DNA of 56,425 nucleotides. Source: an uncultured Cytophagia bacterium. GTDB lineage: Bacteria; Zhuqueibacterota; Zhuqueibacteria; Oleimicrobiales; Geothermoviventaceae. Shown one piece after another: positions 1 to 56,425 of the stretch. The stretch covers positions 1-56,425 of the forward strand of contig CAYXFI010000001.1 in assembly GCA_964464205.1 (NCBI GenBank), given 5' to 3'. The stretch's first letter is position 1; each line of letters begins with the position of its first letter. The position numbers and the translations under genes were made by a program. The notes below the pieces were generated by a model. It was not told the origin of the DNA, did no database searches, and saw only the letters and a list, made by a program, of their open reading frames with translations.

Positions 1-199
1 GGGTGCTGCTCGGAGTACTCGAAGGGGTGCTGCTCGGAGTACTCGAAGGGGTGCTCGAAGAAGTCCCTGACGGAGGAGGATCGCTGGGAGTAGGAGTACT
101 CGAAGGGGTGCTGCTCGGAGTACTCGAAGGGGTGCTGCTCGGAGTGCTCGAAGGGGTGCTGCTCGGAGTGCTCGAAGGGGTGCTGCTCGGAGTTGACGA
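1..199 (-). repeat. Tandem 24-nt units encoding (SSTPSSTP)n on the minus strand
   Basis: Repeated ggggtgctgctcggagtactcgaa units visible directly. Related units occur at 56376..56425 and 48558..49617. Confidence 0.85.
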
Positions 200-36104: not shown

Positions 36105-36725
36105 TCAGTCTGTGGAGTCTTCATCACCAGCCCCCTGCAAATCGTCGTACTTGTTCATGAGTTCCGCCAACTCGTGGTTGCGTAGGTCGCAACGATCCCT
36201 AACAACTGTCATGTCACACCGCACATTGTTCATCCACTCCACGCACTCCTTGACGAAGTCCTTCCACCACTTGATTTCCTCGTAGGCGTCGCACGTGTCG
36301 CACTTGTCCTCCTTGACTTCCTCATTTTCTGATGGGATCGCTGATTCTCGCCTCGCACGCAGCACAGCTCTTGCGACCGCTTCCAGTTTCTCGACATACC
36401 GTTTAGTTCTTGCGTTCCATGATGCTCGCATTATCACATCAACCGAACAGATCACAATCGGAATCCCGTATATCAACCGTTTCAGCCTGCACACCTCAGC
36501 TATCTGCGTGTCGAGCTGGACCCGCAGCTTGGAGCAGTCGTCCTCTTCGTCGTTCAGCACCGGAGCAATGCGGAATCTGTAATGCTCCAGGTCCCAGCCA
36601 TCAGCTGGATCGTGCGGCTCCCACTTTGGAACAGCTGCCACCTTGCACTGTTTTTCGATCCGCTTGTCTTCGAGAGCCCCCTGCAAGACGACAAGCAAAT
36701 CGCGGGTTTCTTGTAGATCTTTCAT
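36105..36725 (-). CDS. Hypothetical protein (206 aa)
   Basis: Preceded by the 10-mer repeat leader. Confidence 0.5.
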   Translation of the reverse strand: MKDLQETRDLLVVLQGALEDKRIEKQCKVAAVPKWEPHDPADGWDLEHYRFRIAPVLNDEEDDCSKLRVQLDTQIAEVCRLKRLIYGIPIVICSVDVIMRASWNARTKRYVEKLEAVARAVLRARRESAIPSENEEVKEDKCDTCDAYEEIKWWKDFVKECVEWMNNVRCDMTVVRDRCDLRNHELAELMNKYDDLQGAGDEDSTD

Positions 36726-36765
36726 CTGTCGGTTCCTGTCAGTTCCTGTCAGTTCCTGTCAGCTC
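36726..36765. repeat. Four tandem 10-mers CTGTC(A/G)G(T/C)TC
   Basis: 36726-35, 36736-45, 36746-55, 36756-65. On the coding (minus) strand this reads GAGCTGACAGGAACTGACAGGAACTGACAGGAACCGACAG-ATG. Confidence 0.9.
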
Positions 36766-38797: not shown

Positions 38798-40153
38798 CTA
38801 GACCTCTTGCCTTTTTCTGAGCCCCTCCAGCACGCTCTCGATCACATTCCGCTTTGACGCCAAGGCCTTGTAGACCGTCTCGTCTACCGTGTTCTCAGCG
38901 ATCAAATGGTAGAACTGAACGTGACGCCGTTGCCCGGGGCGGTGAACACGAGCCAGCGCCTGGTCGTAGTTGCCCAGCGACCAGCACGCCGAGTAAATGA
39001 TCACGTATGAGGATCGTGTCAAGTCGATGCCCAGCCCACCCGCCTGATACTGCACGGCCAGCACATCGATCTCTTCTGGCATCGTTGCTTTGTCTGTTAG
39101 GTCGCGGCGGTTGCCACTGACTTCGCCGTAGCGGCGGCCGAGTTTCTTGCAAACTCGCTTGACAGCCAGCATATCGGCTTTGAACTCGCAGAAGACGACG
39201 ACGGGATCGGAGAGGTCTTCGAGGAGCTCGCGGAGCTCGTCGCTCTTACTGGCGTGGACTTCTGTCAGGGAATCCACGTCGTCCGGCTGGAGAAAGCCGT
39301 TGACGCATTGTCGGAGCCGGAGCGTCTTGACTAGGGCGTTGGCCGCTGTGATGAACCCATCGTCCAGCATGGCGCAGAAATCCAGTTCCAGGTCCTTGTA
39401 GATCTTGCGGGCTTTTGCCGGCAGCTCGAAGCTGCGGATATGGTGCTGGGCTTCCGGGAGATCGAGAACGTCGGCCGAGACCTGGTAGGCGAGCAGGCCG
39501 AATTTCTGTTGGAGGATGTCCAGGTTCTTGTAGCCGGTGATCATCTGCGGGATGACTGGGTTTGTTCGCTGGGCGTACGTGTTGCGGAACCGCGTCCAGT
39601 AGATGCCGAACAGGCTCGGGGCGAGGAAGCGGTACTGGCCGAAGATGCTCAGCGGGTCACGGACCATGGGCGTGCCGGAGAGGCAGAGCCGCCGGCGCGC
39701 TCGGTTGGAAATCCGCATCATGAACTTGCTGATGCGGGTCCCGTGGGGCCCGAACCGGTGCGATTCGTCCGCCACAATCGCGTCCCACACTCGTTCCATG
39801 ACGAGCTGATTAAAGGGCGGCCGCCAGAGACTCTCATAGTTCTGGACGACCGCCAGGGGGCGCTGATCGGTCTGGAGCGCTGATTTGGCGACCTGAGTCT
39901 GAGTCGCGACGGTACCGCGGTCGAGGACGACCACACGGTACCGCGGCGCCCACTTGGCGAACTCGCGCCGCCAGACGCCTCGGACGTTGCACGGGCAGGC
40001 GACGAGAACCAGTTGAGAATCCCAGTGCGAGAGTAGGTCGCAGACCACTCGGCTTTTGCCCGTTCCCATCGCCATGGCGAGCATGGTGGCCTGCTTGTCT
40101 CGCGCGAAAGCGAATGCGCGATCCTGATGTCTCCAGCGGGGGGGAGAAGCCAT
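38798..40153 (-). CDS. SNF2/DEAD-like SF2 helicase
   Basis: MAMGTGKS (I), IVADESHRF (II), CLSGTPMVRDP (III), GGLGIDLT (V), QALARVHRPGQ (VI). Confidence 0.9.
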   Translation of the reverse strand: MASPPRWRHQDRAFAFARDKQATMLAMAMGTGKSRVVCDLLSHWDSQLVLVACPCNVRGVWRREFAKWAPRYRVVVLDRGTVATQTQVAKSALQTDQRPLAVVQNYESLWRPPFNQLVMERVWDAIVADESHRFGPHGTRISKFMMRISNRARRRLCLSGTPMVRDPLSIFGQYRFLAPSLFGIYWTRFRNTYAQRTNPVIPQMITGYKNLDILQQKFGLLAYQVSADVLDLPEAQHHIRSFELPAKARKIYKDLELDFCAMLDDGFITAANALVKTLRLRQCVNGFLQPDDVDSLTEVHASKSDELRELLEDLSDPVVVFCEFKADMLAVKRVCKKLGRRYGEVSGNRRDLTDKATMPEEIDVLAVQYQAGGLGIDLTRSSYVIIYSACWSLGNYDQALARVHRPGQRRHVQFYHLIAENTVDETVYKALASKRNVIESVLEGLRKRQEV

Positions 40154-40159
40154 GTTTTT

Positions 40160-40321
40160 CTACCGCTCTTTCTTTTCGCGGGGGTCCACCCGCGAGATCT
40201 TGAGCTCTTTCGGCGCGCTGATGCCGAGCTTGACTCGTCTTCCGTCGATCCTGATGACTGTGATCATGATCTCGTCGCCGATCGAGATCCGCTCATCTAC
40301 ATTCCGTGTAAGAACCAGCAT
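40160..40321 (-). CDS. csrA: CsrA/RsmA-family RNA-binding translational regulator (53 aa)
   Basis: MLVLTRNVDERISIGDEIMITVIRIDGRRVKLGISAPKELKISRVD compared with E. coli CsrA [46 protein letters not shown]. AGGAG 8 nt upstream of ATG 40321. ORF track gives the longer 40160..40462. Confidence 0.85.
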   Translation of the reverse strand: MLVLTRNVDERISIGDEIMITVIRIDGRRVKLGISAPKELKISRVDPREKKER

Positions 40322-40458
40322 TGACCTGCTCCTAGAAAACGCCGCTCGCTTCGGCTCCGTCGTACGATCCATCCCACGAGCGGCAGAATCCGTTCTCTCT
40401 CCAAATCCTATCGGAGGTCTGCATGTCTCCATGAAGGTACTAAAAGATTCGTACCCAG

Positions 40459-40797
40459 TCAACCCTCTTCTTGAGAATTTTCTCGCGCTTTTTTTGCGAC
40501 TCCATCACGATAAAGTTGATCGGGATCATCATCAAGAGGATGGATCATTCCTTTGCGGTTCACGCGGCGAGTCGAGACAAGCAGAGACAACGGGACGCCG
40601 AGGGCACGAGCAATATCGCTCGCAATTCGCAGCGTGATCCCCTTTCGGCGTCCGTTCTCGATGTCAGAAATGTCGCTCGGGCGGTAGCCGGAAATACGAG
40701 CTAAGCCGCGTTGGCTCAAATGCAAGGCGCGTCGGACCGCCGCCATGTTCGCGATGAATGCTTCCACTTCCGGCCGGATCTCGTTGTTCTTAACCAT
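40459..40797 (-). CDS. XRE (Cro/C1-type) helix-turn-helix regulator
   Basis: LHLSQRGLARISGYRPSDISDIENGRR. Confidence 0.8.
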   Translation of the reverse strand: MVKNNEIRPEVEAFIANMAAVRRALHLSQRGLARISGYRPSDISDIENGRRKGITLRIASDIARALGVPLSLLVSTRRVNRKGMIHPLDDDPDQLYRDGVAKKARENSQEEG

Positions 40798-40827
40798 GCC
40801 CCCATACTACTAATCTATTCGTACGGG

Positions 40828-43800
40828 TCAAGGCAGATTCAATTTCAGCCGGAGTTTGCGGCGTTTTGGAGCCGGACGGCGCGCCTGGTAGGTTTGGAGT
40901 CCCACGCCGAAGATCGCCAGAAGGCTCAGCGCGGCGCCCTTCGGAACACCTTGCTCCCGCATCGCTTCGTAGATATCTCGCGTCGTGATCGGGATCAAGG
41001 CATCCTTGGCCAGCGAGACAGCGGTAACCTTCTCCCCAACGATGTTTTCACCGTTGAAGTAATTGGCGATGCCTCCAAGCCAGGGGGACAGCTTTGTCCG
41101 CATGAATCGCCCCACCGTTCCCATAGTCGTTCGGCCGCCGTAGGGACGCTCCGGACCCCGGAGAGCGACAACCCGCCCGCCGGCGGTCTTCCGCTTGCCC
41201 AGAATGACCTGGGATGACACAACAGCGGTCTGGGACAGGCCGGCCAGCGGGTCGAGTCGCGTGTTGCCGAATCGGATCTTCCCGAAATCCGTGGACAGCG
41301 GGTTGATCTCGATTTTCGGGATGTTGTCGTCGTCAGCGCCCATCGCCGCCATAGCGCCGCCGATCAGAGCGAGTGACCCGTAGAACAGCCCGTAGCCCAT
41401 CAGTGCTCGCCCGTATTCCTTGGCAATCAGTTTCCGGGCCTGATTGGCGTCGCCCCAGGCAATATGCCCTTCCTTCTTGAGCGGTTTCCAGAGCGGGTAG
41501 CCGATCATCAGTTGAAAACGGCTCATCACGTATCGCGGAGCGAAAAACGTTATCCCAAGGTTCTGGGCTGAGCGCTCCAGGGCGCCAAGGGGCCCTCGGC
41601 CTGTTGCGATGTTGACGTAATCTGCGATCAGCTTCGCCTCGTCCATCGTGATTTCGCGGTCCCGGGCGATCTTGTCCGCCATCTGATCGAACAGATCCGC
41701 CCGCATCTTGTTCAGAACCGTCACGTAGGCCCGTTCCGAGCCGCGGACCCCAGCGCCGAGCCAGCCGCCTGTGCCCGCCTTCTTGAACAGATGTCCAGCA
41801 TACGCCTCTTCCTGGGCGGTGAAATCGCCGAGAATGTCGGTGATCGCCAACCCGGCGCGGTAGTAGATCGGAGCGTTCTCGCGGTTGCGGATCTCCTCCA
41901 TGACCTCGAAATGCGACTGATCGCTCAGAGCTGACTCGATCATCGGTCGGACCGTGTTTTTCGTCAACTTCGGATGAGAAGCTGCAACCCAGCCGCCTTG
42001 CCGCAGCAAGCCTGAGAACTCAAAGCTCGTCAAAACCGCTCTGGACGTGTTGAGTGTGCGAGCTATCATGTCGAACCCGCGTTCCACTGTGTTGAACTTC
42101 TCTCGCTCCAGAACCTCCTGGTAGAGCCTGATCTCCTTTTTCGCCTGCTCGATCTTGTAGAGAACGTCGAGCTGCTCCTGGGTGTGCTGCCGCTCAGGGC
42201 GCCGGCGCTTAGCGAAGTCGCCGCGGGCGATCCGATCGAGATAATCGGCCAGTCGTTTCTGGAGCTGGGCATTGTAGGCGTAATCCGGCCGCTCCTTCTG
42301 CCTCAGGGCCTCTCGCTCTGCTTTGAGTGCTTCGAGGCGAGCGCGCCGGGCGTCGATCGCTTCGCTGCGGCGGACCGTACGAGGCTTCCCCCAGATCCGC
42401 CCTTCCGCCAGATCCTTCTCCATGTTCTTGATGAGTCGATCCAGGGTTTTAACGGTCCGGCGCTCCAGCTCTTCCTCGGTCGGCGGCGCTTTCGGGAACA
42501 CCTGTCGATGCAGCTTCTTGACTTCAGCCAGCTGGCGGCGAAGCTCCTTGAGCTCTGCGTCTTCCTCCAGCTTCACCTTGTCGCGAGTGATCCGCTCCTT
42601 GTGGGCGATCTCGTACTGCATGTCCCGGATCGAGTTCCGGATCGCCGTCTTGACGCTCGAAAGGGTGGTTTTGAGCCTCCGGGCCGGGTCAAAGGGCCCA
42701 AATTTCGCCAATTTCATGGCCTCGCGGACTTTCTTCTCCAACCGGCGCTGCTCATCCTCCGGCCGATACTGCTCCATGCCCTTCTTCGGCGGCGCTTTTC
42801 CGTTCTCGATGTCGATCAATCTGGCGATTTGGGTGAGCTCGCCGCGGATGCGGCGAACTTCCTGAAGCACCTCGGTCTTGTTGAGCGGCCGGAAGCGGTC
42901 GTAGGCGGCGATTGCTTTGAGAGTGTCCAGACGGCTCCAGGACTCGCCAAACATCTCAGACAGTTCCCCGTGGACCTGATCCGCAATCTCTTCCCGCATC
43001 GCCGCTTTTTCCTCGTCGCTGCGGCCTTCCAGCGTTCTGCCCTCCTCGGCCCAGGAAGTGACGATCGACTTGACCATTTTGTAGGCCAGGTCGTAGATCT
43101 CCTCGGTCTCTTCCGTGGTCACGTCGAACGTGTCGGAGGCGAAGTCCAGCTTTGCCTGTTTCCAGCCCTCGCGGGCCAGGTCGTGGTACTTGGCGGCCTC
43201 GTCCTCGCCCAAATCGACCTTGAGATTCTGGAAATACTCCTGGAACGTGACGACACCCAGCTCCATGTAAGCCGCGGCGACATTGGCGGCGTCCCGGATG
43301 ACCTCGGGCGGGAACCCGCCGATCGTCGCCGTTTCACCCCGGGCGAACGACTTGAGCGACTCGCGGAGTTTGGCGACTGCGGCGTCTTTCTTGCTCCGGG
43401 CCGCCCGGCGCCGCTTCGACTCGCGCCGGCGCCCGGGGCGCTCCGCTGGCGGGATCGGCTCAGCGCCGGGTCCGCGCCCCTCCGGCGCAGGTCCAGCGCC
43501 TCTTTTCACTTCTTCCCTCGCCTCGGCGACGGTAGCGTCGAAGGCGTCCTGGATGAGAAGATCCTCGAACTGATCCTGCCAGCCCTTGATTTGCTCGGCG
43601 AGCTTCTGAAGCGTCGCCAGTTCCTCCGACGTGAGCGCCGCGCCCTTGGACGCCATGACGCGCCGGGTGAGCCCCGCGAGGCTGTAGTCGGCCGCCAGGA
43701 CGACTTTGCGAGCCATGAGGGAGTAACTGGCGCGGGTGCCCGCCTCCTTCGTCGCCGACTCGACGGAGCGGATCTTTTCGAGCAGCTCCATCTGGCGGTC

Positions 43801-56367: not shown

Positions 56368-56425
56368 CTAAGGAGGATCGCTGGGAGTAGGCGTGCTCGA
56401 AGGGGTGCTGCTCGGAGTACTCGAA
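56368..56425 (-). CDS. 3' end of an S/T/P-repeat ORF (...SSTPSSTPSSTPTPSDPP*), probable continuation of 1..451
   Basis: Hand translation. TAG at 56370-56368. Same frame as 1..451 under the 23-nt overlap. Confidence 0.5.
   Translation of the reverse strand, partial: SSTPSSTPSSTPTPSDPP

What the first reader, a model, noticed from the sequence alone, without database searches (positions are those of the whole stretch)
40160..40797. Phage-borne CsrA homologue immediately downstream of an XRE regulator
The 53-aa ORF aligns residue-for-residue with the RNA-binding core of CsrA/RsmA, including the N-terminal MLVLTR strand and the APKE..R region, and has a good RBS. CsrA is normally a host global post-transcriptional regulator. 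A copy at the head of the phage early/replication gene string, next to a Cro/C1-type HTH gene, suggests the phage manipulates host or its own translation, or titrates the host CsrA antagonists. I am not aware of this being a common phage gene.
Basis: partly seen in the sequence, partly recalled or inferred. Interest (0 to 1): 0.6.

Follow-up and report, generated by a model that had tools for sequence, protein, structure and literature searches.

The report
Stripped-down phage copy of CsrA
An uncultured phage carries a genuine but minimal 53-residue copy of the bacterial RNA-binding translation regulator CsrA at the start of its early gene string; phage copies of CsrA are already documented, so this is a new example, and its one notable trait is that it lacks the tail through which the presumed host switches its own CsrA off.

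Summary
Window 40160-40321 (minus strand) encodes a 53-aa CsrA-family protein: Pfam PF02599 scores 65.6 bits against a cut-off of 27. The predicted fold superposes on solved CsrA/RsmE structures (TM 0.8, rmsd 0.6 Å over 44 residues). The gene has an AGGAG ribosome-binding site and a coding-type codon signature. It follows an XRE HTH gene and precedes an SNF2 helicase.

The claim that this is new does not hold.
- PHROGs has a "CsrA-like regulator" family (phrog_9500, 57 bits).
- 81 GenBank phage records carry a homologue, for example F116.
- At least 120 IMG/VR contigs match a narrow CsrA pattern.
- Two papers have surveyed phage CsrAs (PMC7366521, PMC8450108).
- This scan has met phage CsrAs on at least seven other genomes.

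What is specific here:
- The protein is only the beta-strand core and ends at residue 53.
- The metagenome bin that holds the phage contig has a flgL-fliW-csrA operon, and its 87-aa CsrA carries N55. Published experiments show FliW needs V51/N55 and the surrounding helix.
- The phage copy is therefore probably blind to FliW. This is an inference and was not tested.
- The gene is not conserved in relatives. The closest phage has only a decayed remnant.

Targets are unknown. I rate it a new member of a known kind, of modest interest.

The parts
40160..40321 (-). csrA-like gene: 53 codons plus a TAG stop. It encodes the beta1-beta5 core and a 9-residue charged tail (VDPREKKER).
   Evidence: Pfam PF02599 65.6 bits. 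phrog_9500 57 bits. Fold match to CsrA/RsmE with TM 0.8. Coding-type GC3 of 0.76.
40329..40333 (-). Shine-Dalgarno AGGAG, 7 nt upstream of the csrA ATG. It is itself a GGA-containing site.
   Evidence: Read directly from the sequence.
40322..40458 (-). 137-nt non-coding spacer between the XRE gene and csrA. It holds 8 GGA triplets. A 9-bp G+C stem (GCCGCUCGU/GCGAGCGGC) followed by GUUUUCU ends just before the csrA SD. It may be an attenuator or a self-binding leader.
   Evidence: GGA count of 8 against a window mean of 3.4 (sd 2.0), which puts it in the top 3% of 137-nt windows. Fold energy -55.7 kcal/mol, z -2.2. No Rfam match. This is weak evidence.
40459..40797 (-). XRE-family HTH regulator (112 aa), the first gene of the early string. 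It has no SD, so its mRNA may be leaderless.
   Evidence: Pfam HTH_3 42.6 bits. PHROG transcriptional regulator families. Upstream sequence read.
40804..40831 (-). Sigma70-like promoter TTGACC-16 nt-TAGTAT. The -10 hexamer ends 6 nt before the XRE ATG.
   Evidence: The consensus scan found 1 site where shuffles give a mean of 0.4. This is a consensus match only.
38798..40153 (-). SNF2-family helicase. Its ATG lies 6 nt after the csrA stop codon. Its purine-rich SD region (GAGAAGAAAGAG) lies inside the last csrA codons.
   Evidence: Pfam SNF2-rel_dom 80 bits and Helicase_C. phrog_62 E 1e-101. Junction sequence read.
36726..36758 (-). Candidate phage-internal CsrA target. Three tandem 10-mers (GACAGGAACY) fill the 33-nt leader of gene 36105-36725, and the last GGA serves as the SD.
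   Evidence: ACAGGAAC occurs 4 times in the window, 3 of them here. This is speculative. The repeat also fits the NNGAC phase of the neighbouring VIPR arrays.

Best explanation
The gene encodes a minimal CsrA-family RNA-binding protein. It is made early in infection, from the operon that starts with the XRE regulator and continues into the replication genes.

Like other CsrA proteins, it most likely forms an interlocked homodimer. The two beta1/beta5 faces of such a dimer bind GGA motifs in or next to Shine-Dalgarno sequences and so block or modulate translation.

The protein stops at residue 53 and has no C-terminal helix. It therefore lacks the V51/N55 surface through which FliW binds and switches off the long CsrA of the presumed host, a bin related to candidate division KSB1 that carries a flgL-fliW-csrA operon. 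The phage copy would then be a CsrA that the host's flagellar checkpoint cannot turn off. It could impose CsrA-type repression on host mRNAs (flagellin is the classical target in FliW-type bacteria) or on phage mRNAs.

What is shown: family membership, the fold of the core, retention of the invariant residues, the gene model and its context, and the absence of the FliW-docking segment.

What is inferred: dimerisation, GGA binding, insensitivity to FliW, and the identity of the targets.
For: Family and fold:
- PF02599 65.6 bits.
- AF2 pLDDT 90.9 and Foldseek TM 0.8 to 5Z38, 1VPZ, 2BTI and 2JPP. Sequence identity is highest (60%) to the FliW-type Geobacillus CsrA 5DMB_D.

Conserved residues:
- All columns invariant across 15 and across 75 CsrA sequences are present in the phage protein (M1, L2, V3, L4, R6, G33, A36, P37, R44; also I14, G15, G27).

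Expression signals:
- AGGAG SD, coding GC3 signature, tight packing with the helicase gene, and a promoter-like site upstream of the XRE gene.

Host system:
- The MAG has one other CsrA (91 bits), next to FliW (133 bits) and FlgL.
- That host CsrA is 87 aa and carries E53-E54-N55. All seven chromosomal CsrAs read from relatives in the same class have N55.

Literature on FliW binding:
- CsrA N55D abolishes FliW binding in B. subtilis (10.1101/2020.07.02.184341).
- In C. jejuni, V51A and N55A reduce FliW binding, and a deletion leaving N55 as the last residue largely abolishes it (PMC7829508).

Phage tail:
- The phage protein has P47 and K51 and ends at R53. The NCBIfam CsrA equivalog models match only positions 1-45 and fall below their cut-offs.
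Against:
- The host link rests on metagenome binning only. The contig has 58.3% G+C against 62.1 +/- 1.2% for the bin, a tetranucleotide correlation of 0.88 against 0.98, and no spacer-like matches to the rest of the bin.
- The flagellin gene is not in the assembly, so no host target leader could be inspected.
- Some residues important in E. coli CsrA differ here: R7->N and I47->P (importance recalled from Mercante et al. 2006).
- A C. jejuni CsrA truncated to 50 residues was unstable.
- The gene is dispensable in the lineage. None of the 80 metagenome loci with a related helicase carries it, and the closest phage has only a decayed N-terminal remnant.
Confidence: 0.6

Rival explanations
1. 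It is a regulator of the phage's own genes. The phage CsrA would mainly time phage gene expression by binding GGA-rich leaders on phage mRNAs, including its own 137-nt leader (autoregulation) and the triple-GGA leader of gene 36105-36725, and would not reprogramme the host.
For: - The csrA leader holds 8 GGA in 137 nt, in the top 3% of windows.
- Three tandem GACAGGAACY units, one of them forming the SD, lie 3.4 kb downstream in the same transcription direction.
- Many phage genes use AGGAG-type SDs.
- Earlier follow-ups in this scan reached this reading for other phage CsrAs. Those are unchecked leads.
Against: - The GGA enrichment is modest. Most other GGA-rich windows are ordinary coding sequence.
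- The fold z-score is only -2.2.
- There is no covariation or conservation data, because no close relative keeps the gene.
- The tandem 10-mers also fit the NNGAC phase of the adjacent VIPR arrays, so they may belong to that system.
Confidence: 0.25
2. It is a dominant-negative or heterodimerising subunit. The phage core would co-assemble with the 87-aa host CsrA (50% identical core). The mixed dimers would have only one FliW-binding helix or altered RNA pockets, and so would disturb the host FliW-CsrA-flagellin checkpoint indirectly.
For: - The CsrA dimer is built from interleaved beta-strands of both subunits (family knowledge). In the monomer model, beta1 and beta5 are left unpaired.
- Phage and host cores are 50-51% identical over 49-50 residues.
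- One FliW per CsrA dimer is enough for inhibition in B. subtilis, so stoichiometry matters.
Against: There is no evidence for heterodimers of natural CsrA paralogues at 50% identity. No co-evolution signal can be tested. The host assignment is uncertain.
Confidence: 0.08
3. It is an anti-defence factor. The phage CsrA would repress translation of host immunity genes such as CRISPR-Cas, as proposed for phage RsmA homologues.
For: - Campa et al. 2021 showed that RsmA represses three CRISPR-Cas systems in Serratia and proposed this role for phage homologues (PMC8450108).
- The gene is in an early position, next to other counter-defence-like elements (VIPR system note).
Against: Nothing was tested for any phage CsrA in that paper. 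No PADLOC family matches the protein. The defence systems of this host were not examined and the host is not certain.
Confidence: 0.05
4. It is a decaying or non-functional passenger gene: a truncated leftover of a once longer CsrA, with no present role.
For: - It is the shortest class of CsrA: 3 of 80 IMG/VR homologues have 55 aa or fewer.
- It falls below the NCBIfam equivalog cut-offs.
- The sister phage L003 carries only a broken remnant.
- It is absent from the other relatives.
Against: - The frame is intact, the SD is strong, and the codon-position G+C signature is coding-like.
- Every invariant family residue is kept.
- The model of the core is confident.
- Independent natural forms of 52-58 aa exist in other viral contigs.
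Confidence: 0.07

Closest known systems
Phage-encoded CsrA/RsmA homologues: PHROG 9500 'CsrA-like regulator'; the F116-like Pseudomonas phages ('RsmM' type); Burkholderia phage DC1; surveys by Sobrero & Valverde 2020 (PMC7366521) and Campa et al. 2021 (PMC8450108)
   Same: A small PF02599 protein carried by a tailed phage whose presumed host also has a chromosomal CsrA. It matches phrog_9500 at 57 bits. It shows 46-50% identity to the F116 and PSTCR8lys proteins, which are annotated 'carbon storage regulator'. As for those proteins, function has not been shown experimentally.
   Different: - No close relative exists: at most 65% identity to any of 1.84 billion cluster representatives.
- At 53 aa it is shorter than most (median about 62 aa in 80 IMG/VR examples).
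- The presumed host is of the FliW type and is not a gammaproteobacterium with sponge sRNAs.
- The XRE-csrA-SNF2 arrangement was not seen in the other 80 viral loci.
Chromosomal FliW-partnered CsrA (B. subtilis, C. jejuni, Geobacillus thermodenitrificans; PDB 5DMB)
   Same: The beta-strand core is the same. The highest structural-alignment identity is to 5DMB_D, at 60% over 43 residues. The RNA-binding residues L2, L4, R6 and R44 are present. The bin that holds the phage contig has exactly this system.
   Different: - It lacks the alpha-helix and the C-terminal extension carrying V51/N55 that FliW needs.
- It is not adjacent to fliW or to flagellar genes.
- It scores below the NCBIfam CsrA equivalog cut-offs.
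Plasmid-borne RsmQ of pQBR103 (PMC9928087)
   Same: A mobile-element copy of a host global translational regulator, which could let the element take over a host post-transcriptional network.
   Different: RsmQ is full length and works within the Gac/Rsm sRNA-sponge system of Pseudomonas, and it has been characterised experimentally. The present protein is truncated, sits on a phage, and is untested.
Laboratory C-terminal truncations of C. jejuni CsrA (delta20, delta25; PMC7829508)
   Same: The phage protein ends at a position comparable to these truncations. The delta20 protein lost FliW binding.
   Different: The delta25 protein (50 aa) was unstable in C. jejuni. The phage protein is a natural sequence with its own charged 9-residue tail, and similar natural forms of 52-58 aa occur in other viral contigs.

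Membership tests
CsrA/RsmA family (Pfam PF02599) | Profile match above the curated gathering score | tested here: met
   65.6 bits against a cut-off of 27, E 3.8e-18, profile positions 1-44 of 53.
CsrA/RsmA family (Pfam PF02599) | Five-strand beta core with the CsrA fold | tested here: met
   AF2 pLDDT 90.9. The top 15 Foldseek PDB hits are all CsrA/RsmA/RsmE, with TM 0.78-0.81 and rmsd 0.5-0.9 Å over 44 residues.
CsrA/RsmA family (Pfam PF02599) | Conserved RNA-binding residues on beta1 and beta5 (L2, L4, R6, R44 and hydrophobic residues at 40 and 42) | tested here: met
   M1, L2, V3, L4, R6 and R44 are invariant in alignments A2 and A4 and are present in the phage protein. Positions 40 and 42 are L and I. 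R7 is N and I47 is P.
CsrA/RsmA family (Pfam PF02599) | C-terminal alpha-helix after beta5 | tested here: inconclusive
   Only 9 residues follow R44. The model shows a 6-residue helix (47-52) at low confidence, with pLDDT about 50-79.
CsrA/RsmA family (Pfam PF02599) | Homodimer that binds GGA motifs in RNA | not testable with these tools
   This needs biochemistry. The structure tool folds single chains only.
Chromosomal CsrA equivalog (NCBIfam TIGR00202 / NF002469) | Full-length match above the equivalog cut-off | tested here: not met
   59.7 bits (cut-off 70.1) and 62.7 bits (cut-off 73); only model positions 1-45 are matched. The host CsrA passes with 99.9 and 101 bits.
FliW-regulated CsrA subclass | Extended C-terminus with the V51/N55 FliW-docking helix | tested here: not met
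   The protein ends at residue 53 and has K51 and no N55. The host CsrA and seven of seven class relatives have N55.
FliW-regulated CsrA subclass | Genomic linkage to fliW or flagellar genes | tested here: not met
   The neighbours are an XRE gene and an SNF2 helicase. FliW is found only next to the chromosomal csrA on contig C380.
Phage 'CsrA-like regulator' (phrog_9500) | Profile match, and location on a phage genome | tested here: met
   57.1 bits, E 2.8e-15. The contig consists of phage genes, with a terminal overlap suggesting a complete genome.

The most novel reading that the evidence does not exclude
The phage CsrA is a naturally 'FliW-blind' core. By shedding the helix that carries V51/N55, it would escape the only known antagonist of CsrA in FliW-type bacteria. 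It could then lock flagellin translation, and other CsrA targets, off during infection, for example to stop flagellum synthesis or superinfection through flagella. If phage CsrAs that derive from FliW-type lineages have lost this surface as a rule, that would be a general viral strategy for uncoupling a host checkpoint. In the IMG/VR sample fished with an MLVL-type pattern, only 6 of 79 have N at position 55.
Probability: 0.25. Interest if true: 0.55.

Novelty: new member of a known kind. Interest (0 to 1): 0.3.

Why it matters
Phage copies of global host regulators show how viruses take over cellular control networks. For CsrA this has been proposed several times but never shown for a phage protein.

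This example extends the known range to a phage of an uncultured, probably KSB1-related bacterium whose own CsrA is governed by FliW and not by sponge RNAs. It also offers a simple, testable prediction: a natural 53-residue CsrA core that binds RNA but cannot be switched off by FliW.

If that holds, the protein would be a compact tool for separating RNA binding from antagonist control in FliW-type systems, and a clue to why phages keep such genes. As it stands, it is an annotation-level result.

Tried and rejected
1. Longer gene model (100 aa from TTG 40462, overlapping the XRE stop). Rejected: the 47 extra codons lack the coding G+C pattern and have no SD, whereas ATG 40321 has AGGAG at 7 nt.
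2. CsrA-helicase fusion by TAG read-through. The two genes are in the same frame, but TAG ends 13 of 47 genes here, so it is an ordinary stop.
3. Recent capture from the host. Rejected: identity to the bin's own CsrA is only 50-51%, no higher than to class relatives at 41-52%.
4. A conserved feature of this phage lineage. Rejected: none of the 80 metagenome loci with a related helicase (27-49% identity) has a CsrA ORF. The only exception is a sub-threshold N-terminal remnant in L003/L029. L031 has unrelated small ORFs in the same slot.
5. A recurrent XRE-CsrA or CsrA-SNF2 cassette. Not seen in 80 IMG/VR CsrA loci using single-sequence phmmer, which is an insensitive test for HTH domains.
6. 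A known RNA element (CsrB/Rsm sponge or other) in the window. There are no Rfam matches at gathering thresholds, nor at E <= 1 around the gene.
7. A defence-system component. The protein has no PADLOC match.
8. Host confirmation by spacer or sequence matches. None were found.
9. Host flagellin leader analysis. Not possible: only FlgL matches Flagellin_N in the assembly.
My first DNA pattern had a miscounted gap and found nothing. It was corrected, checked on the window, and rerun.
12. A naive neighbour-ORF extraction from the IMG/VR loci was too noisy to use for family statistics.

Full report
**Observation.** On the minus strand, 40160-40321 encodes a 53-residue protein, MLVLTRNVDERISIGDEIMITVIRIDGRRVKLGISAPKELKISRVDPREKKER.
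- It matches Pfam CsrA (PF02599) at 65.6 bits against a gathering score of 27, over profile positions 1-44 of 53.
- It matches three PHROG families, the best being phrog_9500 'CsrA-like regulator' at 57 bits.
- Against the PDB sequences, the nine best matches (E 5e-11 to 2e-8) are all CsrA/RsmA/RsmE chains; the only other hits are three weak ribosomal protein S1 matches.
- An AlphaFold model built on 75 viral CsrA sequences has a mean pLDDT of 90.9. Its best 15 Foldseek matches in the PDB are all CsrA-family chains, with TM 0.78-0.81 and rmsd 0.5-0.9 Å over 44 residues.
A fixed-spacing CsrA DNA pattern matched once in the window and never in 100 shuffles.

**Gene model.**
- AGGAG lies 7 nt upstream of the ATG at 40321.
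- The 53 codons have G+C of 0.56/0.35/0.76 at codon positions 1/2/3, like the helicase, PrimPol and UvrD genes.
- The possible 47-codon N-terminal extension from TTG 40462 gives 0.43/0.66/0.51 and is not coding-like.
- The TAG stop lies 6 nt before the ATG of the SNF2 helicase. The last csrA codons (GAG AAG AAA GAG) form the purine-rich SD region of the helicase gene.
- The two genes share a reading frame, but TAG ends 13 of 47 genes here, so it is a normal stop.

**Context.**
- The window is the whole of contig C1 of a 697-contig MAG.
- Its ends overlap by 23 nt inside a tandem repeat, which suggests a complete, circularly permuted phage genome.
- Reading along the minus strand, the order is: tail and virion genes, a 2090-aa protein, a sigma70-like promoter (TTGACC-16-TAGTAT at 40831-40804), the XRE HTH gene, a 137-nt spacer, csrA, the SNF2 helicase (phrog_62, E 1e-101), the VIPR region noted by an earlier agent, PrimPol and a UvrD-type helicase.
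- The XRE gene has no SD, and the -10 hexamer ends 6 nt before its ATG, so its mRNA may be leaderless. This rests on a consensus match only.
- No tyrosine integrase lies on the contig.

**The spacer.**
- It holds 8 GGA triplets in 137 nt. The window mean is 3.4 with sd 2.0, which places it in the top 3% of windows.
- It folds with z = -2.2. A 9-bp G+C stem followed by GUUUUCU ends just before the csrA SD.
- This could be an attenuator or a self-binding leader, but the statistics are weak and Rfam finds nothing.
- A stronger-looking candidate target comes from an earlier first-reader note, which I checked. The 33-nt leader of gene 36105-36725 consists of three tandem GACAGGAACY units, with the last GGA serving as the SD. 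ACAGGAAC occurs only four times in the window, three of them here.
- That repeat also fits the NNGAC phase of the adjacent VIPR arrays, so its meaning is open.

**Is a phage CsrA new? No.**
- tblastn finds homologues in 81 of 50,697 GenBank phage records. These are F116-like Pseudomonas phages, Vibrio phages and Providencia phage PSTCR8lys, and most are annotated 'carbon storage regulator'.
- Sobrero & Valverde 2020 found csrA in 30 of 2517 phage genomes.
- Campa et al. 2021 surveyed GenBank and IMG/VR and proposed roles in host manipulation and anti-CRISPR activity.
- Thompson et al. 2023 characterised the plasmid homologue RsmQ and cite phage copies.
- This scan has itself reported phage CsrAs on at least seven other genomes.
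- The gene is rare per phage genome, but the kind is known.

**What is particular here.**
- *It is divergent.* The nearest of 1.84 billion cluster representatives is 65% identical. 13,218 representatives match at E <= 0.001, and the top scores go to proteins with two to eight tandem CsrA domains.
- *It is not a recent copy of the bin's own gene.* Identity to that gene is 50-51%, within the 41-52% range seen for relatives in the same class. Each of those relatives has a single chromosomal copy.
- *It is not a conserved feature of the phage lineage.*
  - Among 80 metagenome loci with a related SNF2 helicase (27-49% identity), no CsrA ORF was found.
  - The one exception is the closest relative (L003 = L029, 49% helicase identity). 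At the syntenic place it keeps only the first 29 or so CsrA-like residues (23.8 bits, below the cut-off) and then loses the frame.
  - That relative also has an integrase and a divergently oriented XRE gene. L031 has unrelated small ORFs in the same slot.
  - Many of these loci are short contigs, so this says 'not found', which is weaker than 'absent'.
- *It is a bare core.*
  - It ends at residue 53, nine residues after the critical R44.
  - In 80 IMG/VR homologues, lengths run from 52 to 163 aa (one 28-aa ORF is a fragment) with a median near 62, and only three have 55 aa or fewer.
  - The NCBIfam CsrA equivalog models match positions 1-45 only and score 59.7 and 62.7 bits against cut-offs of 70.1 and 73. 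The bin's chromosomal CsrA passes with about 100 bits.

**The host system and the FliW argument.**
- The MAG's other CsrA (87 aa, 96.5 bits) lies in a flgL-fliW-csrA operon. FliW scores 133 bits on PF02623.
- The best named FliW relative comes from a candidate division KSB1 MAG, at 65% identity.
- The host CsrA carries E53-E54-N55, as do all seven chromosomal CsrAs that I could read from class relatives.
- Published work shows that CsrA N55 is required for FliW binding in B. subtilis.
- In C. jejuni, V51A and N55A reduce FliW binding, and a truncation that leaves N55 as the last residue largely abolishes it. A 50-residue truncation was unstable.
- FliW co-occurrence goes with longer CsrAs whose C-termini serve as the binding surface.
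- The phage protein has P47 and K51 and stops at R53, so the docking surface is absent. The model shows only a short, low-confidence helix at residues 47-52.
- The core itself looks FliW-type: the highest structural-alignment identity, 60%, is to the Geobacillus CsrA of the FliW complex 5DMB.
- I therefore infer that the phage protein would not be bound by FliW. It suggests instead a CsrA activity that the host checkpoint cannot relieve.
- This is an inference from sequence and from experiments in other species.

**Caveats.**
- The host link rests on binning only. The contig has 58.3% G+C against 62.1 +/- 1.2% for the bin, a tetranucleotide correlation of 0.88 against a mean of 0.98, and no short exact matches to the rest of the bin.
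- The flagellin gene is not assembled, so no host target leader could be inspected.
- R7 is N and I47 is P. These positions matter in E. coli CsrA (Mercante et al. 2006, from my own recall). Position 7 varies among the natural homologues aligned here.

**Mechanism and alternatives.**
- Most likely (about 0.6) it is a functional early-expressed CsrA-type translational regulator that binds GGA sites as a homodimer and is insensitive to FliW. I cannot say whether its main targets are host or phage mRNAs.
- Within that uncertainty, regulation of the phage's own leaders is the main alternative emphasis (about 0.25).
- Poisoning of host CsrA by heterodimer formation, repression of defence genes as proposed by Campa et al., and a functionless remnant are each possible but less supported. 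No PADLOC family matches the protein.

**Verdict.** The gene is a new, divergent and unusually short member of the already documented class of phage-borne CsrA homologues. Interest is modest. The one idea worth an experiment is the FliW-blind core.

Noticed in passing
window 36726-36758 (-): The whole 33-nt leader of gene 36105-36725 is three tandem 10-mers, TGA-CAGGAACTGA-CAGGAACTGA-CAGGAACCGA-CAG-ATG. ACAGGAAC occurs only 4 times in the window, 3 of them here. It could be a multi-GGA CsrA site. Because NNGAC recurs every 10 nt, it could instead relate to the neighbouring VIPR (NN-GAC)n arrays.
   Followed up: partly
window 40797-40831 (-): The XRE gene has no Shine-Dalgarno sequence, and the -10 hexamer of a sigma70-like promoter ends 6 nt before its ATG. 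Its mRNA may therefore be leaderless, as with lambda cI transcribed from PRM.
   Followed up: no
window 40153-40321 (-): csrA and the SNF2 helicase gene are in the same reading frame, separated only by TAG and two codons. TAG is an ordinary stop in this phage (13 of 47 genes), so no fusion is implied.
   Followed up: yes
proteins P0005, P0006, P0023, P0143 (representative search): The best-scoring relatives of the 53-aa protein among 1.84 billion representatives are proteins of about 110 to 450 aa with 2, 4 or even 8 tandem CsrA domains. These look like single-chain 'dimers' and longer arrays.
   Followed up: no
L003:1154-3298 (IMGVR_UViG_3300014204_000032): The closest relative phage has, upstream of its helicase, a divergently oriented XRE gene, a tyrosine integrase, and a CsrA-like N-terminal remnant that loses frame after about 29 codons. 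That relative is therefore temperate and has lost csrA. The window phage has no PF00589 integrase.
   Followed up: partly
window 1-130 and 56370-56425: The contig ends overlap by 23 nt within a 24-nt tandem repeat (GGGTGCTGCTCGGAGTACTCGAAG). The assembly probably closed a circle and broke inside a repetitive gene.
   Followed up: partly
G000 contig C380 (L001:638-2314): The bin's chromosomal csrA sits in a flgL-fliW-csrA operon, but no flagellin gene proper was found in the 697-contig assembly. Only FlgL matches Flagellin_N.
   Followed up: partly
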